From Promethearchaeota archaeon (GTDB lineage: Archaea; Asgardarchaeota; Lokiarchaeia; Sigyniarchaeales; SOKP01): 32,000 nt of DNA. Location of the stretch: the NCBI GenBank assembly GCA_030606485.1, contig JAUWGH010000008.1:184259-216258 (forward strand), in the 5' to 3' direction. Under the pieces are notes generated by a model. The model saw only the letters and a program-made list of their open reading frames with translations, searched no databases and was not told the DNA's origin. Position 1 is the stretch's first letter. Each line of letters opens with the position of its first letter. Positions 21,474 to 32,000 of the stretch are shown piece by piece. The position numbers were made by a program, and so were the translations under genes.

Positions 21474-22736
21474 TTAAAAGAAATTTTGAAATTTATTATT
21501 TGCAATATTTTTTCTGTCTTGAACTCTCTCTTCCTTACTTTTATTCATTTTGAGTGCATTATTACAAATTTCTTTTCCAATAATTACTGAAGGATTAGTC
21601 GCCCAATTCACATTAATCATCATACAAAAGAAATATACACTCGTTTGAATAAATGATATTAACTCTGTGATTGATTTAAGATATACATCTTTACTTGATA
21701 TTTTTGCCGAAGGGACATCTTTTTCAATTAATGCTTGAAATGTAGCATCAGCTTGAAAATTAATTATTTCTTCAGCCGATTTTCCATTAATAAAATCTAT
21801 TTTCGAACTTAAACTATAATCATGTTTTTCTTCATCAGTCGTCCATAGAATCGGGCTTACAGAACCGGAGCTTCCTCCTAGAAGAAATTCAAGGATTGAA
21901 TGTTGGCACAATGGTGCTGGCTGATAAGTTCCTATCAAACCTTTCCCATCTTTACCGCTACTTTCGCTCAATCCTTGAACAAATAAACCAGTCATATATT
22001 CTAAATCTTTAAAGTAGGGCATAGAAAATATGTTATGATAACCCTTTAAATAGAGATTATATAAAAAAGTTGCTAATTCTAATGCATAATTTCGATTATC
22101 AGAATTATTTGCAATATTCTCTAAATCCATAAAATGAGAATAGCCATAGTCTAGGTATTTTAAAAATGCATTAATATCAATTCCTGCAATATATGCAGGA
22201 GCAAGAGCTACATTTGTAATTGAAGCAGCGAATCTCCCTGAAAGATCTGGAGCATCTAAAATTGAGCAACCTATTTCTTTTAAAATTTCATTCATAGGTC
22301 CTCTGGAAGATATACCGAGAAAAGGAAAATTTTTTTGAAGAAATAATTCAAGTGTGGAATTGATATCTAATGTTTTTCCACCGCGAGAAATAGGAATTAC
22401 AAGAGAATTATTTTCATTGCAAAATTTTAAACAATTATTAATCTCACTTGGTCTTGAACTTGTAATTGGGAAAATCTTTTTCTCTGTAAGATGGCTCAAG
22501 CATAATAATGTTTGAATTGAACCCCCAGTTCCTAAGATAATTAAATTTCTAATATTCTCATTATTTTTATAACCTTCACAAATCTTTTCTATGTGTTTTA
22601 AATCTACAAAATCGGAAGTATTTATAAAAAAAGGCTCATCCCAATTATGCTTATTTTTTGAAATAAGTTCCTTTGCTTCTAATAATTTATCTATTGATAA
22701 TTGTGGATAATATTCAAAATTTAAATTAAGATCCAA
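21474..22736 (-). CDS. pgi: Glucose-6-phosphate isomerase family (SIS-domain) protein
   Basis: GTGGS, SGRF, SESSGK, QHS and IIGK correspond to PGI catalytic R/E/H/K positions. Sequence is divergent. RBS GGTG 7 nt before TTG. Confidence 0.75.
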   Translation of the reverse strand: MDLNLNFEYYPQLSIDKLLEAKELISKNKHNWDEPFFINTSDFVDLKHIEKICEGYKNNENIRNLIILGTGGSIQTLLCLSHLTEKKIFPITSSRPSEINNCLKFCNENNSLVIPISRGGKTLDINSTLELFLQKNFPFLGISSRGPMNEILKEIGCSILDAPDLSGRFAASITNVALAPAYIAGIDINAFLKYLDYGYSHFMDLENIANNSDNRNYALELATFLYNLYLKGYHNIFSMPYFKDLEYMTGLFVQGLSESSGKDGKGLIGTYQPAPLCQHSILEFLLGGSSGSVSPILWTTDEEKHDYSLSSKIDFINGKSAEEIINFQADATFQALIEKDVPSAKISSKDVYLKSITELISFIQTSVYFFCMMINVNWATNPSVIIGKEICNNALKMNKSKEERVQDRKNIANNKFQNFF

Positions 22737-22874: not shown

Positions 22875-23237
22875 ATGAGTGAAGAACAACTCCAATATTT
22901 GTTGACAAATTTAGTGGAGAATGTTGATGGACTCCTATCAACTGCATTAATAAGTACAGAAGGATTAATTGTCCAATCTATATTAGAGGAAGAGGTTTCA
23001 GAATTAAAAATTGCGGCTATGAGTGCAACTATTCTGTCCACATGCGAACGTGTCCTTTTAGAATTAAAACAAGGAGAATTAGATATTTGTGTAATTCAAG
23101 GAAATGAAGGAAATTTCATAATTATGAGTGCTGGAGAATCACTTATTTTGGTCACTGTCCTCGCAATGGATGCTAGAATGGATATATGTTTTATTGAAAT
23201 GAGAAAAATTACTAATCAAATAAAAAACCTCTCTTAA
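22875..23237 (+). CDS. Roadblock/LC7 (MglB-like) domain protein
   Basis: VDGLLSTALISTEGLIVQS...KIAAMSATIL...ELKQGEL...QGNEG...LILVTV pattern. Confidence 0.9.
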   Translation: MSEEQLQYLLTNLVENVDGLLSTALISTEGLIVQSILEEEVSELKIAAMSATILSTCERVLLELKQGELDICVIQGNEGNFIIMSAGESLILVTVLAMDARMDICFIEMRKITNQIKNLS

Positions 23238-23405: not shown

Positions 23406-24494
23406 TTGGCAAAAAGCACAACTAAAAAAGTTGCTACTAAAAATGAAGGAACTGACGACATATTGGAGATCGAATTGGAAGATATAATAAACGAAGAGGA
23501 ATTAAACGATGATGAAATATTGGATGAAGAAGAGATTACTGAAGTAGGTGATGATTTTTATGGAGATATTAAAAGTCTTCCAGGTGTTGGACCTGCCACT
23601 AGAAAAAAATTAATTGAAGGAGGATTTACATCTTTAAAATCAATAGCTTTTAGTTCTCCAAGATTAATTCAAGAAGAAAGTGGATTAGGCGAAAAAACAG
23701 TAGCAAAATTAGTTAAAGCAGCGATGGAGATTTTACATATTGGATTTAAATCTGCTGATGCTATCTGGGAAAAAAGAAAGAAAATTGTAAGAATCACTAC
23801 CGGAAGCCAGGAGTTAGATGACGCATTAAACGGAGGTATAGAAACTGGTTCCTTAACTGAATTTTATGGTGAATATCGTACCGGTAAAACTCAAATTATG
23901 CATCAATTATGTGTTAATATTCAATTGCCCAAATCAAAGGGTGGTCTTAATGCAAAAGCATTATATATTGATACTGAAGGGACTTTTAGACCTGAAAGAA
24001 TTATATCTATGGCAGAAGGATTAGATTTAGATCATAAAAAAATATTGAAGAATATAGTTTATGCTCGTGCGTATAATTCCGATCATCAAATGATGCTTGC
24101 AAAAGATGCTTCTCGTTTAGCTGTTGAGGAAAATATCAAATTAATTGTAGTAGATTCATTAATTGGACATTTTCGGAGTGAATATATTGGAAGAGGGACT
24201 TTAGCGGATCGTCAACAAACATTAAATTCACATTTACATGATTTATTGCGACTTTCTGAACTTCATGAATTGGCAGTATGCGTAACAAATCAAGTTCAAT
24301 CAGACCCAGGTGTATTTTATGGTAATCCAACAAGAGCTACCGGTGGAAATATTGTGGCTCATGGCTCTACTATAAGAATCTATCTAAGAAAAGGTAAAGG
24401 GGATCAAAGAGTTGCTAAAATTGTTGATGCACCACATTTGCCGGAGGCTGAAGCAATATTCTTAATCACAGAAGAAGGAATAAAAGGCCTATAA
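23406..24494 (+). CDS. radA: DNA repair and recombination protein RadA, with acidic N-terminal extension
   Basis: HhH LPGVGP, Walker A GEYRTGKTQ, YIDTEGTFRPER, Walker B LIVVDS, TNQV and GGNIVAH motifs. Confidence 0.97.
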   Translation: MAKSTTKKVATKNEGTDDILEIELEDIINEEELNDDEILDEEEITEVGDDFYGDIKSLPGVGPATRKKLIEGGFTSLKSIAFSSPRLIQEESGLGEKTVAKLVKAAMEILHIGFKSADAIWEKRKKIVRITTGSQELDDALNGGIETGSLTEFYGEYRTGKTQIMHQLCVNIQLPKSKGGLNAKALYIDTEGTFRPERIISMAEGLDLDHKKILKNIVYARAYNSDHQMMLAKDASRLAVEENIKLIVVDSLIGHFRSEYIGRGTLADRQQTLNSHLHDLLRLSELHELAVCVTNQVQSDPGVFYGNPTRATGGNIVAHGSTIRIYLRKGKGDQRVAKIVDAPHLPEAEAIFLITEEGIKGL

Positions 24495-24511: not shown

Positions 24512-27500
24512 TTAATCCTTAATTTTCCAACCATCTTTTAAAACAAAAATAATTTTATCTTCCTTTCTTATTTGATTTATGATCACTCTAATTTCTTTTT
24601 TAGTTGTTAGTATTTCAGCATCCTCTGCAGTCTTTAATACAGTTTCTATTAATTTTTCTTTAAGAATTCTTACATCATGACTTTCTTTTAATACTTTAAA
24701 CACCATTTCTTCAATCTTTTCTTTGTTTTTTAGAAAAGTTTGTTCTTGTTCTTCAGTGAGAGATATTTCCTCCTCTATTGGCTTCTTTTCGATTTCTTTT
24801 TTCTCCTTTTCCTCAATTTCATCAGGTTTAACTTCTGATTTCTTTTCCTTTTCTGTTATTTCCTTGGTTGTTATTATTTTAGAAGGAATCATTTCAATTT
24901 GTTTTTTGGATTTTTCATCTTTCACTTCAATTGGTTCAGCACTTTTTCTACGCTTTTTTATAATAATAATTGCTATAGCTCCAACTACTACAACCGCAAT
25001 AATAGCTAAAACCAGAAAAATTAAAAGCAAATTATCTATTGGAGGAGCTTTACTTAAAGATATTGTTAAACTTAAGGAAGCACCGTTGTATTTGTAATTT
25101 CCCTCGTATAAAACTGTAATATTTACAAACTCAGCGCCCTCTGGTATTACAATATCATAACTTGCAAGTCCATCTGCATTTGTAATAGAAGTTATCGTTT
25201 GTGGGGCAAGACCACCACCAAAATCGAATATTAAACTTATATTTTCACCCGAAATTGGAAGATCCGCACTTATTTGTAATAATGATAGGTTAATAGAGAC
25301 AAATTCCAATTTTATTGAAATACTGAGGATATCCCCAATTCCAATACTTTCAGGAGCATCGTATAATGATAGATCTACTACATATTTTTCTGAAAATTCA
25401 ATAGTATATAAAATAGAGCGATTAATATAGTAATCTTCGGTAAATATAATATTTAAATTGTATGTTTGTGCAGTAAAATTATCGGTTAATAAAATCCAAT
25501 AATATATATCACCCAAAACAGTAGCTTCATAATTAATGCCATCAAGCACCAATATTACATTACTTTGATTGATATAATATCCCGTTATATTATCTTTCAA
25601 TTTTAGTTGAATCGATAAATTATTGCCAATATATGCATCTGAAATTGACCCATCTTGAATTTCTAACTCATGCCCATAATCACTTGCACTTAAATTAGAA
25701 ATTTCAAGCCCTTTATAACCCATTGTAATATAAAATTGAAACGTAACGGTCTCCCAGTTATCCTTCATCATTGTTATTGATATTGAATATGTGCCTATTA
25801 GATTAGTTGGTATTAACCATTCATATATTCCACTAACTCCATTGTAATCGTAATAATTTTGTCCATTGAAATTAAGAATCCCGTTACCATCATTTATCCA
25901 CATGAAATTATTTTCATCATAGAATGAGAATTGAATTCTAGAACTATAGGGTAACCACCCTAAATACGAATTGGAACTTACATCGTAGATTAATTGGCCA
26001 CTAAATCCATCATGTTCTGGTTGATTTACGCTTATTAACGCTCCATTAGTTGGTATAAAATTAATTATTAAATAACACGTTATAGACGCACCATGATAAC
26101 TAGTTTTAACAAATACAATTTTACAGGTATGATTTCCTATAAGTTCATTAAACGTGCTAATGGTAAACATACATTGTCCTTGACTATTTGTGATATTTTC
26201 ATATATTTTTTCTCCAGACTGTTCATAATTAAAAATAAAGCTAGCGTTAGCGCCATTTATTGGATTTCCGTTCTCAGCATTACGAAATTCAACAAGAAAT
26301 GTTGTATTATAATTTCTATAAATAAAATAGTTAACCCCATCGATAATAATATCTCGACCTTCTGGTTGTTCTACATTTAAAATTGAACTGTTTGTAAACC
26401 AACTTATAAGCGTTAAATTAAATGTAATAATAGAAGAGTTGTAGAATGATTTTGATATATTTAAAAGGGCTATATAAGATCTATCTGGAATAAAATTACT
26501 TGAATTAATCTCAATCCAACATTCTCCATTAGATCCTGTTATATTTTCATATAATTCACCATTAATTTCCAATTTAACATTAGCATAAGAAACTCTCTCT
26601 GAATGAAGAATATCCCAATATTGAATAATAAATGTAGCATTTGAATCACCTTTTGAATAATATACTTTCAATATTGAATCGTATGACATTTCTCCATTAT
26701 CATCAAATGCACTCGTAATAGTGATATTAGTTTCACATATCACATAAAAGTTATAATTAAAAGTTTGATTTTCATAATATGTTTTATTTCCAGTAATTTC
26801 AACTGTTTTGGAGCCATAATCACTAGGCCCAAAATTACCACAAATAATATTAATTCGGTAAAAGCCGTCGGTTCCATTGGTAACAGATATTGATTGCCAT
26901 ATCCCACCACCAATGCTGTACCAGATGGTTGCACCATTAATTGCAGCAATTTGATTTATATCTTCAAAATACACATCAATATCAAAATTTTGATTTGTAT
27001 AAAAAGTATCATCTTGATTTGGTGAAGCTAACGTCAAATCTGTTTCGCAGATTACATAAAAGTTATAATTAAGCGTTTGATTTTCATAATATGTTTTATT
27101 TCCAGTAATTTCTACAGTTTTTAAGCCATAATCATCGGGTCCAAAATTACCACAAATAATATTAATTCGGTAAAAGCCGTCGGTTCCATTGGTAACAGAT
27201 ATTGATTGCCATATCCCACCATCAATGCTGTACCAGATGGTTGCACCATTAATTGCAGCATTTTTATTTACATCTTCAAAATACACATCAATATTAAAAT
27301 TTTGATTAGTATAGAAAGTATCATCTTGATTTGGTGAAGCTAACGTCAAATCAGTTTCGCAGATCACATAAAAGTTATAATTAAGCGTTTGATTTTCATA
27401 ATATGTTTTATTTCCAGTAATTTCTACAGTTTTTAAGCCATAATCATCGGGTCCAAAATTACTGCAATCTACGTTAAATATATAATAACCAATTGTTCCA

Positions 27501-30500
27501 TTATTTGCAATAGTGGATAACCAAGTTCCACCATCAATACTGTACCAAATTGTTGCTCCATTTATTGCTTCAATTTGATTCGTGTCTTCGAAATAAACAA
27601 CAACATCAAAATTTTGATTTGTGTAAAAAGAATCATCTTGATTTGGTGAAGCTAACGTCAAATCAGTTTCGCAGATTACGTAAAAATAATAATCCAACGT
27701 AGAATGATCATAGTAAGATTTATTTACCGAAATTTCTATTTTTATTCGACCATAATCATTCGAATCAAATATATTACAATCAACATTAAATTCGTAATAA
27801 CCTGCTGTTCCATTATCTCCAACAATTAATTGCCAGCCAGCATTATTAATATTATACCAAATAGTACCTCCTGAAATTGCTTCAATTTGATTCGTGTCTT
27901 CAAAATAAACAACAACATCAAAATCCTCATTTGTATAAAAAGTAGAATCCTGACTTGGACTGAAGAGAGTTAAATCCGTCTCACAGATTACGTAAAAATA
28001 ATAATCCAACGTAGAATTCTCATAGTAAGATTTATTTACCGAAATTTCTATTTTTATTCGACCATAATCATCGGAATCAAATATATTACAATCAACATTA
28101 AATTCGTAGTAACCTGCTGTTCCATTATCTCCAACAATTAATTGCCAACCAGCATTATTAATATTATACCAAATGGTACCCCCTGAAATTGCTTCAATTT
28201 GATTCGTGTCTTCAAAATAAACTACAACATCAAAATCCTCATTTGTATAAAAAGTAGTGTCCTGACTTGGACTAAAGAGAGTTAAATTCGTTTCACATAT
28301 CACATAAAAATTATAATTAAGGGTTTGGTTTTCATAATATGTTTTATTAGCAGTAATTTCTACAGTTTTAAAACCATAGTCATCAGGTCCAAAATTACTA
28401 CAAATAACATTAATTAAGTAATAACCAATCGTTCCATTATTTTCAGAAGTGGCTAACCATGCTCCGCCGTCAATACTATACCATATGGTTGCCTCATCAA
28501 TTGCGTTGAAGTGAATTAAATCCTCAAAATATATAATTATATCAAAATTTTGATTAGTATAGAAAATGTCATCCTGATTTGGTTCGGCTAAATAAAGAGA
28601 AGAAAGCCCAATAACAGTAAAATTAAATCTCAAGCTACTGGTTTCATAGAAAAATTTAGATGCGTTAATTATTATATATTTCTCTCCCCAAGTTGTAAAT
28701 TCGGAGCAATTAATACTTATATTATAATAACCAGGTTGTGCAAGTGGGGTAATAGTTATAGAACCATAAAACCCTCCATTCAAACTACATTGTATTGTTG
28801 CACCATCTAAACCTTCATTCTTCATTGTATCATTATAGAAAACCGTAATATTTAAAATATCATTTGAGTAATAAACAGAATCTATTTCAGACGGAGTAAC
28901 AGGTCCTAGTAATAATTCGGCTGTTATTGGATTAATTGTTAAATTAAATTCATAGGTAACATTCGCCCAGTTTAATTTACTCATTATTATTTTAATCACA
29001 AAAGTGCCATTTACATTATATGATGGAATTACCCATGAATAAATTCCAATATTTCCTGAATGATTCCAATAAAGAACTCCATTAAATAATAATGAGCAAT
29101 TTCCGTCATTAATCCAAACTTCGTTTAATTTATCATAAAATGAAAAAGAAATATTTATATTATATTTCATTAGTCCTTCATAAGTATTATTTGATGGATA
29201 ATAAGTTAATTCTACAGGATCACCCGATATATGACTTAATTGCGTTACATTAAGAAGTGTGCCGTTAGTTGGAATAAATGTAATATTTAATTTTCCCGTA
29301 ATTACAGATGTTTTATAATCTTCTTTTGAAAATGTGATCGTAAAATCATAGATTCCAGTTATCATATTATGAGTAGGTATTATAAATTTAACTTGTCCTG
29401 AATCATTTGTGAATCTCAAATCACTAAATACTTCTATTCCACCAAAAGTTAAAACAATAGTAGCTTGTGAATCATTTATTGGCTCATGATCATCCGTATT
29501 CCAATAATCTGCTAAGATTGTTGTATTATAGTTCCTGTAAATGACATAATGAACACCATCAAAATAAACAGTTGTTAAGCCTCCAGTTTGATTAACTGTT
29601 AAAATTGAAGAGTTTGTTTCATATTGTACTATGGATAGATTTAACCAAATCACTGAGGCTTCATAATTGAATTTCCAGAAAGTTATATTTATTTTATAAT
29701 CACCCTGCTCATAACCGCTAGAATTTAATTCAAACCAACATGTTCCAGATTGAGTTTGATTTTCTAGAAATTCAATACCTTGAACCGTTAAATTACCATT
29801 TGCGGCATCTATACTATAAGAGTGATTAACATCCCAGAATGTAATAATAATAGTCACATTTTCATCTCCTTTTGAAGTATATATAGGATAATCACCCACA
29901 TAACTTGGAAATAGCTCGCTTTTATCAAAAACTAAATCTATGGTAATGTTTGTATATATTGTGTTTATATCAAAATTATGTGTTGTTGTATTGCTTATAA
30001 AATTCGATTTAAAAAAATAAATGATAAAGGAATAATCTTCAGCTATTGCTAAAGTTTCAACATCAATTTCCCATTTAAATATTCCGTCTCCATCAATATC
30101 TGTATCTGTATAATTTATTAAATTAAATTCTAATTTCGCTGTTGCAGGTGTTATTTCCGTATTATTATAATAATTTAAATATTTTGCATAAACCGTAATA
30201 TTCTCACCATTAAAACCATCGTATTTTCCATTTCTTAGAATTAAGATTTGTCCGTATTGGGTTAAATTTATAATTTCCATGTATGTATCGCAAGGAAGTA
30301 TTTCTATTTGAAAACTATCAATAACAGAGTTGTAATAGGTTTTATTCAAAATAATTTCAACATTATAAATACCAACATCTAAAAAAGCAGTATTTAACGT
30401 CCAAATATAATATCCATCATTATTTAAATCTTGATGAATTTGAGATGCCAAACTTTGGAAAGTAAGATTTCCTGTTCCACCTGTAATTAATGTATTCAAA

Positions 30501-32000
30501 TTATCAATATCAAAATAAGATATATTAATTATCGCATTTATACCATAATAAATTTGCCAAGGAGAACTCTCATCGAAAATACCATAATTGTTTTGATCGA
30601 TTCTATTAATATTGTAGGAAGTTCTATTCCAAACCTCTAAATATATTATATAATTTTGAGTTATGTTATATATTAAAGATATGTTGAATCCAATTTCATA
30701 AGGATTTCCTCCTGCTCCAATTACGTTAGAAGTATTTAAAATTAAATTATAATTCCCATTTCCAATATCTTGCCATGAATAAATAAATGATGGATCAATA
30801 GATGTTAGTTGTAATTGAGCACCAGAAATTGGACTCGAATCATTCCACATATAATGTGCAACAAAAGTTATATTTGCACCTCTTATTACTTCTTGATAAT
30901 TATCATCAATATATTGCGAGGTAACATTCCATAAATAATAATTATAATCTTTAGATTGGTTAATATAATAAATTTTCGAAGTATTTACCCTAATTAAAAT
31001 AGGTCCGTAGCCAATATTTCGAACATGCCAATTATAAATTGTTATATTATAATATCCGTTTCCATAATCAAACCAGTTTGTTGATTGATACCCATTCCCA
31101 TAATCATATTCAATATTTGCTCCAGAAATTCCAGAATCTTTATTTATATCATTATAATAAATTGTTATATTGAAATAACTCTCTGAATCCATATCTAAAT
31201 ATTGTAATGGATATGTTATCGTTAAATCAGTGAAACAAATTACGTTAAAATTATAATCGAGAGTATTATTCTCGTAATAAGTTTTATTGGCAGTAATTTG
31301 GACCATTTTTGGTCCATAATCGTCGTGATTGAATTGATTACAATAAATGGTAATATTATAGTAGCCAACTGTCCCATTGTTTACGGTTGTCTGCTGCCAC
31401 CCTTGCCCATCAATATTATAATATATGGTAGCTCCATTTATAACAATATTATGGTTTATATCTTCAAAATAGATCGTTATGTTGAACACCTGATTTGTAT
31501 AGAAGATATCATCCTGATTTGGCTCCATTAAGGTTAAATCTGTAAAGCAAATCACATTAAAGTTATAATCAAGTGTTTGATTTTCGTAATAAGTTTTATT
31601 GACAGTAATTTGAACTGTTTTTGGTCCATAATCATCGTGATTAAATTGATTACAATAAATTGTGATGTTATAATAGCCTGTTGTGCCATTATTCAATGTT
31701 GTTTGTTGCCACCCTTGTCCATCAATGTTATAGTATATAGTTGCACCATCAATGGCAGCATTATGATTTAAATCCTCAAAATAGATAGTAATATTGAAAA
31801 CTTGATTTGTATAGAAGGTATCATCCTGATTTGGTTCCATTAGGGTTAAGTCCGTAAGACAAATCACATTAAAGTCATAGTTAAGTGTTTGATTATCGTA
31901 ATATGTTTTATTAGCAGTGATTTGGACCGTTTTTTGTCCGTAATCATCATGATTAAATTGATTACAGTAAATAGTAATGTTATAGTATCCCTCTGTTCCG
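24512..32000 (-). CDS. Giant single-pass surface glycoprotein/adhesin-like protein with Ig-like repeats (5' end outside window)
   Basis: Frame is open beyond the track start to the window edge (GTEGYYNITIYC...). Beta-rich repeats dense in N-x-S/T, TM helix at about 24960-25032, then a charged cytoplasmic tail. Confidence 0.9.
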   Translation of the reverse strand, partial: GTEGYYNITIYCNQFNHDDYGQKTVQITANKTYYDNQTLNYDFNVICLTDLTLMEPNQDDTFYTNQVFNITIYFEDLNHNAAIDGATIYYNIDGQGWQQTTLNNGTTGYYNITIYCNQFNHDDYGPKTVQITVNKTYYENQTLDYNFNVICFTDLTLMEPNQDDIFYTNQVFNITIYFEDINHNIVINGATIYYNIDGQGWQQTTVNNGTVGYYNITIYCNQFNHDDYGPKMVQITANKTYYENNTLDYNFNVICFTDLTITYPLQYLDMDSESYFNITIYYNDINKDSGISGANIEYDYGNGYQSTNWFDYGNGYYNITIYNWHVRNIGYGPILIRVNTSKIYYINQSKDYNYYLWNVTSQYIDDNYQEVIRGANITFVAHYMWNDSSPISGAQLQLTSIDPSFIYSWQDIGNGNYNLILNTSNVIGAGGNPYEIGFNISLIYNITQNYIIYLEVWNRTSYNINRIDQNNYGIFDESSPWQIYYGINAIINISYFDIDNLNTLITGGTGNLTFQSLASQIHQDLNNDGYYIWTLNTAFLDVGIYNVEIILNKTYYNSVIDSFQIEILPCDTYMEIINLTQYGQILILRNGKYDGFNGENITVYAKYLNYYNNTEITPATAKLEFNLINYTDTDIDGDGIFKWEIDVETLAIAEDYSFIIYFFKSNFISNTTTHNFDINTIYTNITIDLVFDKSELFPSYVGDYPIYTSKGDENVTIIITFWDVNHSYSIDAANGNLTVQGIEFLENQTQSGTCWFELNSSGYEQGDYKINITFWKFNYEASVIWLNLSIVQYETNSSILTVNQTGGLTTVYFDGVHYVIYRNYNTTILADYWNTDDHEPINDSQATIVLTFGGIEVFSDLRFTNDSGQVKFIIPTHNMITGIYDFTITFSKEDYKTSVITGKLNITFIPTNGTLLNVTQLSHISGDPVELTYYPSNNTYEGLMKYNINISFSFYDKLNEVWINDGNCSLLFNGVLYWNHSGNIGIYSWVIPSYNVNGTFVIKIIMSKLNWANVTYEFNLTINPITAELLLGPVTPSEIDSVYYSNDILNITVFYNDTMKNEGLDGATIQCSLNGGFYGSITITPLAQPGYYNISINCSEFTTWGEKYIIINASKFFYETSSLRFNFTVIGLSSLYLAEPNQDDIFYTNQNFDIIIYFEDLIHFNAIDEATIWYSIDGGAWLATSENNGTIGYYLINVICSNFGPDDYGFKTVEITANKTYYENQTLNYNFYVICETNLTLFSPSQDTTFYTNEDFDVVVYFEDTNQIEAISGGTIWYNINNAGWQLIVGDNGTAGYYEFNVDCNIFDSDDYGRIKIEISVNKSYYENSTLDYYFYVICETDLTLFSPSQDSTFYTNEDFDVVVYFEDTNQIEAISGGTIWYNINNAGWQLIVGDNGTAGYYEFNVDCNIFDSNDYGRIKIEISVNKSYYDHSTLDYYFYVICETDLTLASPNQDDSFYTNQNFDVVVYFEDTNQIEAINGATIWYSIDGGTWLSTIANNGTIGYYIFNVDCSNFGPDDYGLKTVEITGNKTYYENQTLNYNFYVICETDLTLASPNQDDTFYTNQNFNIDVYFEDVNKNAAINGATIWYSIDGGIWQSISVTNGTDGFYRINIICGNFGPDDYGLKTVEITGNKTYYENQTLNYNFYVICETDLTLASPNQDDTFYTNQNFDIDVYFEDINQIAAINGATIWYSIGGGIWQSISVTNGTDGFYRINIICGNFGPSDYGSKTVEITGNKTYYENQTFNYNFYVICETNITITSAFDDNGEMSYDSILKVYYSKGDSNATFIIQYWDILHSERVSYANVKLEINGELYENITGSNGECWIEINSSNFIPDRSYIALLNISKSFYNSSIITFNLTLISWFTNSSILNVEQPEGRDIIIDGVNYFIYRNYNTTFLVEFRNAENGNPINGANASFIFNYEQSGEKIYENITNSQGQCMFTISTFNELIGNHTCKIVFVKTSYHGASITCYLIINFIPTNGALISVNQPEHDGFSGQLIYDVSSNSYLGWLPYSSRIQFSFYDENNFMWINDGNGILNFNGQNYYDYNGVSGIYEWLIPTNLIGTYSISITMMKDNWETVTFQFYITMGYKGLEISNLSASDYGHELEIQDGSISDAYIGNNLSIQLKLKDNITGYYINQSNVILVLDGINYEATVLGDIYYWILLTDNFTAQTYNLNIIFTEDYYINRSILYTIEFSEKYVVDLSLYDAPESIGIGDILSISIKLEFVSINLSLLQISADLPISGENISLIFDFGGGLAPQTITSITNADGLASYDIVIPEGAEFVNITVLYEGNYKYNGASLSLTISLSKAPPIDNLLLIFLVLAIIAVVVVGAIAIIIIKKRRKSAEPIEVKDEKSKKQIEMIPSKIITTKEITEKEKKSEVKPDEIEEKEKKEIEKKPIEEEISLTEEQEQTFLKNKEKIEEMVFKVLKESHDVRILKEKLIETVLKTAEDAEILTTKKEIRVIINQIRKEDKIIFVLKDGWKIKD
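26735..28609 (-). repeat. Six tandem 312-nt (104-aa) intragenic repeats
   Basis: Junction codons (VIC/VIG) at 28607, 28295, 27983, 27671, 27359, 27047 and 26735, each exactly 312 nt apart. Confidence 0.97.
31235..32000 (-). repeat. Second block of 312-nt repeats (2 full units plus a partial unit running off the window; a diverged unit follows at about 30920-31237)
   Basis: VIC codons at 31859, 31547 and 31235. Confidence 0.95.

What the first reader, a model, noticed from the sequence alone, without database searches (positions are those of the whole stretch)
24512..25040. Giant adhesin-like protein ends in a cytoplasmic winged-helix-like domain: a possible surface-to-cytoplasm signalling or anchoring system
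After the single TM helix and KKRRK stop-transfer come a Glu/Lys-rich linker and a ~70-aa terminal segment: helix (KEKIEEMVFKVLKES), helix (KEKLIETVLKTAEDA), helix (KKEIRVIINQIRKED) and a beta-hairpin (KIIFVLKDGWKI). That order is winged-helix topology. A >2,490-aa Ig-like ectodomain joined to an intracellular wH would be receptor-like (DNA binding, or protein docking as in ESCRT-II-type wH domains) rather than a passive S-layer protein.
Basis: partly seen in the sequence, partly recalled or inferred. Interest (0 to 1): 0.7.

Follow-up and report, generated by a model that had tools for sequence, protein, structure and literature searches.

The report
Winged-helix tail on giant surface protein

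Summary
The minus-strand ORF at window 24512-31999 is cut by a contig end. It ends in one TM helix, KKRRK, a 63-aa K/E-rich linker and an 80-aa domain. AlphaFold2 folds that domain as H1-b-H2-H3-hairpin (pLDDT 78). Every top structural match is a winged helix (wH); the best is the cullin WHB domain (Z 11.9, rmsd 1.8 A over 77 aa).

The tail is conserved and belongs to an unannotated family with no Pfam or PDB sequence match. The family is almost confined to one Asgard family (51/134 genomes; 54/400 in the phylum).

- Most members are small proteins of 154-190 aa, with or without an N-terminal TM helix. They sit at the syntenic position, between a paralogous giant ("A") and radA.
- Giant-fused forms occur in four genomes from three deep lineages and are collinear. 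The fused form is therefore probably ancestral, and the small forms are reductions of it.
- The wH is under purifying selection in the small forms (dN/dS about 0.2) but looks relaxed in this genus.

Function is inferred only. The best reading is a membrane-tethered docking module; nucleic-acid binding is the main rival. In three of the four giant loci a RING-H2 protein gene follows directly; this genome has none. Signalling, cleavage and DNA binding are untested.

The parts
24512..24514 (-). Stop codon of the giant gene ('giant B'). It lies 17 nt from the stop of the convergent radA.
24515..24754 (-). C-terminal winged-helix domain (residues 2416-2495 of the window ORF): long H1, short bridge strand, H2, H3 and a beta-hairpin wing ending in G-W-K-I.
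   Evidence: AF2 pLDDT 78 and DSSP. Foldseek top rows nearly all wH, best TM 0.78. VIA-align best Z 11.9 to CUL1 WHB. Homologues. 16 of the 18 (nearly) invariant family positions are kept.
24755..24943 (-). K/E-rich, proline-containing linker of 63 aa, probably flexible. It holds a degenerate copy of the family's short K-T-[IV]-V-[IV]-E strand motif.
   Evidence: dN/dS of the linker in small forms is 0.37-0.82, against 0.15-0.25 in the wH.
24944..24958 (-). KKRRK basic cluster, a positive-inside stop-transfer signal.
   Evidence: The same basic cluster follows the TM in the other giant forms and opens most small forms.
24959..25030 (-). The single transmembrane helix (24 residues).
   Evidence: Kyte-Doolittle scan: the only segment above threshold in 2,495 aa.
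25031..31999 (-). Ectodomain of 2,323 aa, partial. It consists of about 104-aa repeats with 100 N-glycosylation sequons and is cut by the contig end. The N-terminal 639 aa, with a signal-like start, lies on contig C10 (locus L007:13835-15751).
   Evidence: Only sub-threshold Ig-like Pfam hits. Ig-like look-alikes by language-model features at 0.87-0.90, a lead only.
23406..24494 (+). radA (Rad51/RecA family), convergent neighbour. It is the syntenic landmark that identifies the giant gene as the positional equivalent of the small wH genes of other genomes.
   Evidence: Pfam Rad51 E 9.6e-98; synteny.

Best explanation
Shown: The last 80 residues of this giant type-I surface glycoprotein form a real winged-helix domain. 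A single TM helix, a KKRRK cluster and a flexible K/E-rich tether of about 60 aa hold it on the cytoplasmic face of the membrane. The domain defines an unannotated family that is nearly restricted to one Lokiarchaeia-type family.

Inferred: The giant-fused architecture is the older state. It has been cut down repeatedly, first to TM + tether + wH, then to tether + wH, and in places to a remnant.

Inferred: The wH is an autonomous module that works next to the membrane. In the TM-less forms a conserved hydrophobic-polybasic N-terminus (G-F-I-K-K-R-R type) may still hold it there. Its most likely job is to dock a cytoplasmic partner, protein rather than DNA. This resembles the cullin WHB, RPA32/Rpa2 and MCM winged helices, which are its best structural matches. 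In the giant form it would then couple an adhesin-like ectodomain to that partner. The partner is unknown.
For: Fold:
- AF2 pLDDT 78 with canonical wH order.
- Nearly all of the Foldseek PDB top 50 are wH domains, as are nearly all of the VIA-align top 50.
- The best matches are protein-docking WHB domains of cullins (8caf_E Z 11.9, rmsd 1.8 A over 77 of 79 residues; also CUL5, CUL7, Cdc53, APC2). P. abyssi Rpa2 WH follows at Z 9.1.
- ESM-Atlas shape hits are again wH domains of MCM, RecQ, RNase R and MarR proteins.

Conservation:
- 6 hits by exhaustive phmmer and 75 by profile.
- 54/400 genomes of the phylum, of which 51/134 are in the window's own family.
- dN/dS 0.15-0.25 in the wH against 0.37-0.82 in the linker.

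Autonomy:
- Most members are 154-190 aa with no ectodomain. Some keep an N-terminal TM helix, and most start directly at the basic cluster, with stops closely upstream.

Positional orthology:
- 6/6 small-form loci read ATPase, ATP-grasp, giant A, small wH gene, radA.
- In this genome the same series reads giant A, then the giant B N-terminus at the end of C10, then the giant B C-terminus and radA at the end of C12.

Fused form older:
- Giants with this tail occur in G000, G165 and G144 and as P0080.
- On a tree of the giant A tail, the three that carry an A tail fall in three deep lineages.
- They are collinear: 38% identity over 1,814 aa with G165, and 27% over the last 430 aa, including the TM, with G144.
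- A decay series exists within this genus: giant in G000, small with a lost wing in L005, and a 43-aa remnant in G147.

Topology: 100 sequons outside and none inside, plus the KKRRK cluster.
Against: - No partner is identified and no binding is shown.
- The domain is basic (pI 9.1-10.2 in 28 of 29 members). Many lower-ranked structural matches are DNA binders (Zalpha, SAMD1, H1/H5, MarR/IclR/Fur types). Nucleic-acid binding is therefore not excluded.
- The family is absent from most genera that keep giant A, for example g12 with 0/42 against 42/42. It is accessory.
- In this genus the tail may be under relaxed selection. dN/dS against the closest relative is 0.78 over 63 codons. Among the listed strain variants in the wH, 7 are non-synonymous and 2 synonymous, against 14:12 in the ectodomain. 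The sample is small and the list was truncated.
- Ancestry of the fused form rests on parsimony over a single-protein tree and on incomplete genomes.
Confidence: 0.5

Rival explanations
1. Nucleic-acid-binding winged helix held at the membrane. This could be a membrane-tethered regulator that binds DNA or RNA directly from the membrane through the ~60-100-aa tether, as bitopic ToxR/CadC-type regulators do. It could also be a regulator released by cleavage. The small soluble forms would be the free version.
For: - Basic domain: net +3 to +9, pI 9.1-10.2 in 28/29 members.
- Conserved exposed K at the start of H3 and a K/R-rich wing (G-W-K-I-R).
- DNA- or Z-DNA-binding wH domains are among the structural matches: ZBP1 Zalpha Z 8.8, SAMD1 WH 8.9, H1.8 8.5, KAT6A WH 7.7, ToxR.
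- Recurrent sub-threshold sequence pulls to Zalpha (PDB profile E 0.3-1.2; Pfam z-alpha in 5/29 members, best E 0.016).
- 18/29 members have N and 15/29 have Y at the positions that appear to line up, by my own eye alignment to the ADAR1 Zalpha sequence as I remember it (not tool-verified), with the Zalpha N/Y contacts.
Against: - None of the sequence matches reaches significance or a curated cut-off.
- The N and Y are not conserved across the family and are missing in all three giant forms in that alignment (here R and N).
- The best structural matches, by a margin of 2-3 Z units, are protein-docking WHB domains.
- K-rich basic proteins are common in this 29% GC genome, so pI is weak evidence.
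- No operator-like repeat or regulated neighbour was identified.
Confidence: 0.25
2. Ubiquitin-system module. The cullin-WHB-like wH, or the lysine-rich tether, is the docking site or substrate of a RING-H2 E3 ligase. That would give ubiquitin-dependent turnover or sorting of the giant surface protein.
For: - In three of the four loci with a giant wH-tailed gene, the next gene on the same strand encodes a 742-744-aa protein with a RING-H2 finger. zf-RING_2 scores 36.9, 33.9 and 29.3 bits against a cut-off of 27.3; zf-rbx1 scores 29.7 bits, just under its cut-off of 31.
- The same protein has TPR/SNAP-like repeats, in one case a PCI hit at 26.6 bits against a cut-off of 22, a Roadblock-like N-terminus (my reading of the sequence; no Pfam hit) and a C-terminal coiled coil.
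- A species of this genus (G148) has the 3' end of that gene convergent with radA, in the slot next to where giant B ends here.
- The best structural match of the tail is the cullin WHB domain, which in cullin-RING ligases lies against the Rbx1 RING (established knowledge).
- The tail is 22% lysine.
Against: - This genome has no orthologue of the RING protein, only unrelated RING-bearing ORFs of 199 and 669 aa.
- The RING protein is found in only 5/154 genomes of the order and in none of the 64 genomes of the two genera that hold nearly all the small forms. In two genomes (G133, G134) it has no giant neighbour.
- Sequence identity to the cullin WHB is 12%, with no Pfam cullin hit.
Confidence: 0.1
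3. In this particular genome the tail is an evolutionary leftover on its way out. It is still folded but no longer needed, and the protein acts only through its ectodomain as a passive surface or adhesion protein.
For: - The sister species show decay: L005 has lost the wing strands and G147 keeps only a 43-aa remnant between giant A and radA.
- dN/dS is 0.78 against L005.
- Listed strain variants in the wH are 7 non-synonymous to 2 synonymous.
- This member is the most divergent of the family, at 23-47% identity to the others.
Against: - The frame is intact, with no indels, in four independent metagenomes.
- 16/18 (nearly) invariant positions are kept and AF2 folds this very sequence with pLDDT 78.
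- The variant counts are small and come from a truncated list, and L005 is itself degenerate, which inflates dN/dS.
Confidence: 0.15

Closest known systems
Cullin WHB (winged-helix B) domain, e.g. CUL1 WHB (PDB 8caf_E, 3o2p_E)
   Same: Best structural match: Z 11.9, rmsd 1.8 A over 77 of 79 residues, Foldseek TM 0.78. Both have a long leading helix, a three-helix core and a hairpin wing at the extreme C-terminus of a large protein. WHB is a protein-docking wH, not a DNA binder.
   Different: Sequence identity is 6-18% with no Pfam cullin hit. There are no cullin repeats and no alpha/beta domain. Here the wH sits behind a TM helix on a surface glycoprotein. A neddylation-type lysine was not assessed.
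Bitopic membrane-tethered wH regulators of bacteria (ToxR, CadC, TcpP)
   Same: A single-pass membrane protein combines an extracytoplasmic domain with a cytoplasmic winged helix on a flexible tether. ToxR appears among the Foldseek matches (rank 47).
   Different: The orientation is opposite: ToxR has the wH at the N-terminus and a small periplasmic sensor at the C-terminus. There is no OmpR/PhoB-type Trans_reg_C sequence match. The ectodomain here exceeds 3,000 aa of repeats. DNA binding is not shown.
Zalpha domains (ADAR1, ZBP1/DLM-1, PKZ)
   Same: A compact wH of similar size, with Z 7.7-8.8. There are weak profile matches (E 0.3-1.2), and a K..N...Y ... W-K-I pattern occurs in about half of the small forms.
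   Different: All matches are below threshold. By my eye alignment from memory, the N and Y that contact Z-DNA are replaced in this protein and in the two other giant forms in the alignment. There is no proline pair before the W, except in G144.
Rpa2/RPA32 and MCM C-terminal winged helices
   Same: These are C-terminal wH domains on a flexible linker that recruit partner proteins. P. abyssi Rpa2 WH scores Z 9.1 and MCM WH also appears. The gene is next to radA in most loci.
   Different: No sequence relationship was found. The orientation to radA is convergent, so there is no operon. A membrane-anchored or giant context is unknown for those families.
Small hypothetical proteins of Lokiarchaeia-type MAGs (e.g. 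LCGC14_0627590; 154-190 aa, no Pfam)
   Same: These are true homologues of the tail (profile E 1e-21 to 1e-33, 35-51% identity). They share the same tether motif and the same C-terminal G-W-K-I ending, at the same genomic position.
   Different: They lack the ectodomain and mostly the TM helix. This protein has a one-residue insertion between H1 and H2 and a different final residue.

Membership tests
Winged-helix fold (structural class) | Order H1-S1-H2-H3-S2-wing-S3, with a three-helix core and a C-terminal beta-hairpin. | tested here: met
   DSSP on the AF2 model gives H6-29, a bridge at 35, H37-50, H57-69, E73-76 and E80-83, with pLDDT 78.
Winged-helix fold (structural class) | Superposes on solved wH domains over most of the domain. 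| tested here: met
   Best Z 11.9 with rmsd 1.8 A over 77 aa. 23 chains score Z of 8 or more, and nearly all 50 rows listed are wH. Foldseek TM reaches 0.78.
Cullin WHB / Cullin_Nedd8 | Sequence membership (Pfam Cullin_Nedd8) and position after cullin repeats and the alpha/beta domain. | tested here: not met
   No cullin family appears in Pfam scans of the protein, the tail or 29 family members. The upstream sequence is TM plus repeat ectodomain.
Zalpha (PF02295) | Score above the Pfam gathering threshold. | tested here: not met
   Only 5/29 members give sub-threshold hits, best E 0.016. The profile against PDB Zalpha chains gives E 0.3-1.2. A single-member phmmer search gives none.
Zalpha (PF02295) | Conserved Asn and Tyr on H3 and Trp in the wing that contact Z-form nucleic acid. 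| tested here: not met
   The equivalence of positions rests on my own eye alignment to the ADAR1 Zalpha sequence recalled from memory, not on a tool alignment. At those positions this protein has R and N. The family has N in 18/29, Y in 15/29 and W in 28/28, and none of the three giant forms in the alignment has N or Y.
ESCRT-II winged helices (Vps22/Vps25/Vps36) | Tandem pair of wH domains; sequence match to EAP30 or ESCRT-II families. | tested here: inconclusive
   Only a single wH is present, with no second one in the tail. No Pfam ESCRT-II hit was found. No ESCRT-II chain is among the 50 rows shown by either structure search, which does not exclude it.
ToxR/OmpR-type membrane-bound wHTH regulators | Trans_reg_C-type wHTH at the N-terminus, followed by the TM and a periplasmic domain. 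| tested here: not met
   No Trans_reg_C hit was found. Here the wH is C-terminal to the TM.
New family: Lokiarchaeia tether-wH proteins (small proteins of 154-190 aa and giant-fused forms) | C-terminal ~75-aa domain with the conserved core and the terminal G-W-K-I motif, preceded by a basic cluster and a K/E-rich tether. | tested here: met
   Profile E 1.2e-33 for this protein in the genome search. 16/18 conserved positions are kept. The full small-protein HMM aligns over residues 2346-2494.
New family: Lokiarchaeia tether-wH proteins (small proteins of 154-190 aa and giant-fused forms) | Syntenic position downstream of giant A and beside radA. | tested here: met
   for this genome; for six others.

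The most novel reading that the evidence does not exclude
The giant protein's tail is a cullin-WHB-like platform. In the ancestral locus it worked with the RING-H2 protein encoded immediately downstream (Roadblock-like N-terminus, TPR/SNAP, PCI, RING, coiled coil). Together they would form a membrane-anchored, split forerunner of the cullin-RING arrangement. It would ubiquitylate the lysine-rich tails of surface receptors and hand them to the Asgard ubiquitin-ESCRT machinery. On this reading the small tail-only proteins are free adaptors of the same system.
Probability: 0.07. Interest if true: 0.9.

Novelty: new variant of a known kind. Interest (0 to 1): 0.55.

Why it matters
Cultivated Lokiarchaeia have no cell wall. 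[quoted passage not shown] The molecules that couple the surface to the cytoplasm are not named there.

This locus offers concrete candidates. One is a giant glycoprotein with a folded, conserved cytoplasmic wH on a tether. Next to it lies a paralogous giant whose 425-aa cytoplasmic tail is conserved in every genome of the family, and whose first ~230 positions recur in large ORFs of 351/400 Asgard genomes.

The work also defines a new, easily expressed 8-kDa domain family for binding studies. It shows a clear natural deletion series, from giant to TM-tail to tail only to remnant, that separates the tail's function from the ectodomain's. If the RING link holds, it would bear on the origin of cullin-RING ligases and of ubiquitin-dependent receptor sorting.

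Tried and rejected
1. Paralogues of the tail in this genome: none. phmmer and two HMMs against all six-frame ORFs gave only chance hits, with E of 0.0087 or worse, to PhoU-like and thioredoxin-like ORFs.
2. The first word-based search for giants with this tail (region 2330-2495) found nothing. A later search with the G165 tail found one more giant, P0080.
3. Pfam on the tail and on 29 members gave only sub-threshold hits: TFC3_eWH, eWH_GTF3C1 in 10/29, z-alpha in 5/29, GMT-wHTH, MCM4_WHD.
4. The PDB sequence search with the profile gave nothing significant. The top hit (E 0.0029) is a GCN4-adaptor coiled coil in autotransporter fusion constructs, which reflects helical bias. A single-member search gave none.
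5. Is the B tail a diverged copy of the giant A tail? hhalign probability is below 1%. Rejected.
6. Complex prediction of the giant A tail with the giant B tail scored 0.00, so there is no verdict. This is neither support nor evidence against.
7. Language-model look-alikes of the tail and of a small form are all unnamed clusters at 0.90 or below. Nothing usable.
8. No RNA holder was listed among public runs, so expression could not be examined.
9. Foldseek on the giant A tail model gave only TPR/MIT-like helical-repeat rows at E above 0.04. The N-terminal half of that model has pLDDT 35-50 and was not interpreted.
10. Small genes as read-through or frameshift products of giant A: rejected. Stops occur in all frames across 110-360-nt AT-rich spacers.
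11. Earlier-scan look-up by sequence found nothing.
12. A literature search found no description of this tail or architecture.
Full report
WHAT IS THERE

The window is the last 32 kb of contig C12 of a 3.75-Mb, 29% GC genome in 13 contigs. Its gene content is archaeal: RadA, Roadblock/LC7, TrmO and FeoB. All relatives of the feature are MAGs labelled Promethearchaeota or Lokiarchaeota.

The minus-strand frame 24512-31999 is open for 2,495 aa and runs off the contig. A hydropathy scan finds one TM helix, residues 2324-2347. In window coordinates:
- TM helix: 24959-25030
- KKRRK: 24944-24958
- K/E-rich linker of 63 aa: 24755-24943
- Terminal 80 aa: 24515-24754
- Stop codon: 24512-24514, 17 nt from the stop of the convergent radA

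The ectodomain carries 100 N-glycosylation sequons in 2,323 aa and the tail carries none. With the positive-inside cluster, this fixes the topology as ectodomain out, tail in.

The missing N-terminus is almost certainly the 639-aa open-ended ORF at the end of contig C10. That ORF has a signal-like hydrophobic start, and its last repeat unit is 81% identical to the first units on C12. The assembly evidently broke inside near-identical repeats. The whole protein therefore exceeds 3,100 aa.

IS THE TAIL A WINGED HELIX?

AlphaFold2, given a seven-sequence alignment, folds the last 85 aa with mean pLDDT 78.2. The elements are H6-29, a bridge residue at 35, H37-50, H57-69, E73-76 and E80-83.

Three structure searches agree:
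- Foldseek against the PDB gives nearly only wH domains. The best is Cdc53 WHB at TM 0.78/0.77. E-values are weak (0.018 or worse), as expected for a 70-aa fold.
- The exhaustive VIA-align search gives CUL1 WHB at Z 11.9 (rmsd 1.8 A, 77 of 79 residues). CUL7, CUL5, Cdc53 and APC2 WHB follow. Next come Rpa2 WH (9.1), the tau138 extended wH (9.0), SAMD1 WH (8.9), ZBP1 Zalpha (8.8) and H1 (8.5). Nearly all 50 rows are wH.
- The ESM-Atlas shape search again returns wH domains of MCM, RecQ, RNase R and MarR proteins.

At the sequence level nothing is significant. Pfam gives only sub-threshold extended-wH and z-alpha hits. A profile against all PDB sequences gives Zalpha chains at E 0.3-1.2. So the fold is wH, and family membership is in none of the known families.

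IS IT CONSERVED, AND WHERE?

An exhaustive phmmer search of 1.84 billion representatives with the last 85 aa found six proteins, with E from 6.7e-11 to 2.6e-4. A profile of these found 75 clusters with E from 1e-33 to 5e-21. All are 154-225 aa, carry no Pfam domain and have the domain at the very C-terminus, ending in G-W-K-I-R/K-I.

A six-frame profile search of 400 genomes of the phylum hit 54:
- 51 of 134 in the window's own family (genus g11 44/54, g10 5/10, g9 1/1, own genus 1/4 besides the window's genome)
- one in a sister family
- one marginal hit

This genome has no second copy.

The small proteins fall into types:
- A few have an N-terminal TM helix directly before the basic cluster (P0005, P0006, P0069, P0078; for the L011 type the helix lies in the open frame upstream of the called start).
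- Most begin M-x-x-G-F-I-K-K-R-R-x-K-K-E-K, with stop codons only 10-25 codons upstream, so they have no TM.

A full-length HMM of the small proteins aligns to residues 2346-2494 of the giant. That is the whole cytoplasmic tail, from the stop-transfer cluster onward. The linker contains one short conserved motif, K-T-[IV]-V-[IV]-E, which is degenerate here.

Among small forms, dN/dS is 0.15-0.25 in the wH and 0.37-0.82 in the linker. dS is near saturation, so these values are approximate.

GENOMIC CONTEXT AND HISTORY

All six small-form loci examined share one order:
1. cation ATPase
2. ATP-grasp_5 protein
3. a giant single-pass protein ("A", 1,555-2,280 aa)
4. the small wH gene on the same strand
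5. convergent radA
6. a 411-412-aa protein of unknown family

In this genome the end of C10 reads ATPase, ATP-grasp, giant A (1,553 aa), then the N-terminus of the second giant ("B"). The end of C12 reads the C-terminus of B, radA, Roadblock and a 420-aa unknown. B thus occupies the slot of the small wH gene.

B is a paralogue of A in the ectodomain: its first 620 aa are 62.5% identical to A of the same genome. The tails, however, are unrelated (hhalign probability below 1%).

Giants with the wH tail also exist elsewhere:
- G165: at least 1,978 aa
- G144, in a sister family: at least 1,535 aa
- P0080: 1,670 aa and complete

They are collinear with this protein, at 38% identity over 1,814 aa (G165) and 27% over the last 430 aa through the TM and tail (G144).

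On a maximum-likelihood tree of the giant A tail, used as a species proxy, the giant state sits in three deep lineages. Inside this genus there is a decay series: giant (this genome), a 187-aa form with half a TM helix and no wing (L005), and a 43-aa remnant between giant A and radA (G147).

Three independent collinear fusions are far less likely than repeated deletion of the ectodomain. I therefore infer that the fused form is ancestral and the small forms are reductions. This is an inference from parsimony on a single-protein, midpoint-rooted tree with incomplete MAGs.

Contigs from four other metagenome studies (cold seep, marine sediment, subsurface) cover the tail-TM-ectodomain junction at 90-99% identity without indels. 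The architecture is therefore real.

HOW IT MOST LIKELY WORKS

Shown:
- a folded, basic (pI 9.2; family 9.1-10.2) wH at the end of a flexible tether on the cytoplasmic side
- the same tether-wH unit persisting under purifying selection after loss of the ectodomain, and even of the TM helix

Inferred:
- The unit is autonomous and acts beside the membrane. The conserved hydrophobic-polybasic N-terminus of the TM-less forms would suit peripheral membrane binding.
- The structural neighbours that stand out by 2-3 Z units are protein-docking winged helices (cullin WHB, Rpa2 WH) rather than DNA readers. My best reading, at about 50%, is a docking module that recruits a cytoplasmic partner to the membrane. 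In the giant form it would tie an adhesin-like ectodomain to that partner.
- It is not a dedicated transducer of ectodomain signals, because most family members have no ectodomain.

The main rival, at about 25%, is nucleic-acid binding by a membrane-tethered or free regulator.
- For: the basic charge, the K/R-rich wing, and a Zalpha-like K..N...Y...W pattern in about half of the small forms.
- Against: that pattern is absent from all three giant forms in the alignment, where this protein has R and N. It was also read from my own eye alignment to a remembered Zalpha sequence, and no sequence match is significant.

A third reading comes from a neighbour. In three of the four giant-B loci, the next gene on the same strand encodes a 742-744-aa protein with these features:
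- a RING-H2 finger (zf-RING_2 above threshold; zf-rbx1 just below)
- TPR/SNAP-like repeats
- in one case a PCI hit
- a Roadblock-like N-terminus (read from the sequence, no Pfam hit)
- a C-terminal coiled coil

A cullin-WHB-like wH beside an Rbx1-like RING is suggestive. However:
- this genome lacks that gene
- only 5/154 genomes of the order have it
- none of the 64 genomes of genera g10 and g11, which hold nearly all the small forms, has it
- in two genomes it has no giant neighbour

I keep this reading at about 10% and as the "novel case".

Finally, the tail may be decaying in this genus (about 15%). dN/dS against L005 is 0.78, and listed strain variants are 7 non-synonymous to 2 synonymous in the wH, against 14:12 in the ectodomain. 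Against that, the frame is intact in all four metagenomes and 16 of 18 conserved positions are kept.

COMPARISON WITH THE KNOWN, AND NOVELTY

The fold is ordinary. Membrane-tethered wH proteins are known in bacteria (ToxR, CadC), but with the opposite polarity and an OmpR-type domain. A giant repeat glycoprotein ending in a cytoplasmic wH has, as far as the searched literature shows, not been described. The same holds for a family that ranges from that form to an 18-kDa tail-only protein. The domain has no Pfam model.

I rate it a new variant of a known kind. Interest is moderate (0.55): a well-supported new domain family and architecture in Asgard surface biology, but lineage-restricted, accessory and without a demonstrated partner.

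The context matters because Lokiarchaeia crawl on surfaces with regulated adhesion and an actin cytoskeleton, and their wall-less membrane is decorated with unidentified proteins (PMC13716822).

The neighbouring giant A may be the more important lead. Its 425-aa cytoplasmic tail is 75% column-identical across genera and is present in 134/134 genomes of the family. Its first ~230 positions recur in large ORFs of 351/400 genomes of the phylum, with no Pfam family.

Noticed in passing
L007:8959-13620 (G000 contig C10, outside the window); alignment A3: Giant A, the paralogous upstream giant (1,553 aa), has a ~425-aa cytoplasmic tail that is far better conserved than its ectodomain (75% mean column identity across 7 genomes). 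The full tail is found in 134/134 genomes of the family. Its first ~230 positions match large ORFs (about 1,100-1,700 aa) in 351/400 genomes of the phylum, several per genome. It has no Pfam family. AF2 suggests an alpha-beta-beta-alpha-beta-beta-alpha (Roadblock-like?) module and then a wH-like unit, both at low confidence, followed by a confident five-helix TPR/MIT-like end (pLDDT ~88).
   Followed up: partly
L047:5256-7484, L024:5959-8187 (-), L025:5895-8126 (-): A 742-744-aa protein is encoded directly downstream of the giant wH-tailed gene in three genomes. It has a Roadblock-like N-terminus, TPR/SNAP-like repeats, a PCI hit in one case, a RING-H2 finger and a C-terminal coiled coil. It is rare (5/154 genomes of the order) and has no orthologue in this genome. 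In G148, of the same genus, its 3' end abuts radA (L058).
   Followed up: partly
window 31999 (end of contig C12) and the end of contig C10 (L007:15751): The giant gene is split between two contig ends, because the assembly broke in near-identical ~104-aa repeat units (81% and 75% identity between the C10 end and the first C12 units). Synteny with six other genomes indicates that the two contig ends are adjacent.
   Followed up: partly
window 21474-22736 (-): A 420-aa protein without a Pfam family (only CDC45 at E 0.023) is syntenic in every related locus examined (411-420 aa), always near radA. Function unknown.
   Followed up: no
window 22875-23237 (+): A Roadblock/LC7 gene (E 2e-10) lies between the 420-aa unknown and radA. 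The same arrangement is seen in L005, L025, L026 and L047. Roadblock-like modules also seem to occur in the giant A tail and at the N-terminus of the RING protein.
   Followed up: no
L005:7484-8047 and L026 (G147:C17:4480-4593): There is a natural decay series of the wH gene within the window's genus. One species has a 187-aa form that starts inside the former TM helix and has lost the wing strands. Another has only a 43-aa open remnant between giant A and radA.
   Followed up: yes
alignment A4, columns ~90-100; window ~24860-24900: A short conserved strand-like motif, K-T-[IV]-V-[IV]-E, sits in the otherwise fast-evolving tether. It is present in giant and small forms and degenerate in this protein. 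It may be a linear binding motif.
   Followed up: no
alignment A2, H3 and wing: About half of the small forms carry a K..I-N..I-I-Y-Q ... G-W-K-I pattern reminiscent of the Zalpha Asn/Tyr/Trp contacts. G144 has P-P-A-P-G-W-K before the C-terminus. The giant forms lack the N and Y.
   Followed up: partly
window 24723-25097 (+): A 124-aa ORF on the opposite strand overlaps the tail and TM region. It is most likely a shadow ORF of the AT-rich, K/E-rich coding strand. It was not examined further.
   Followed up: no
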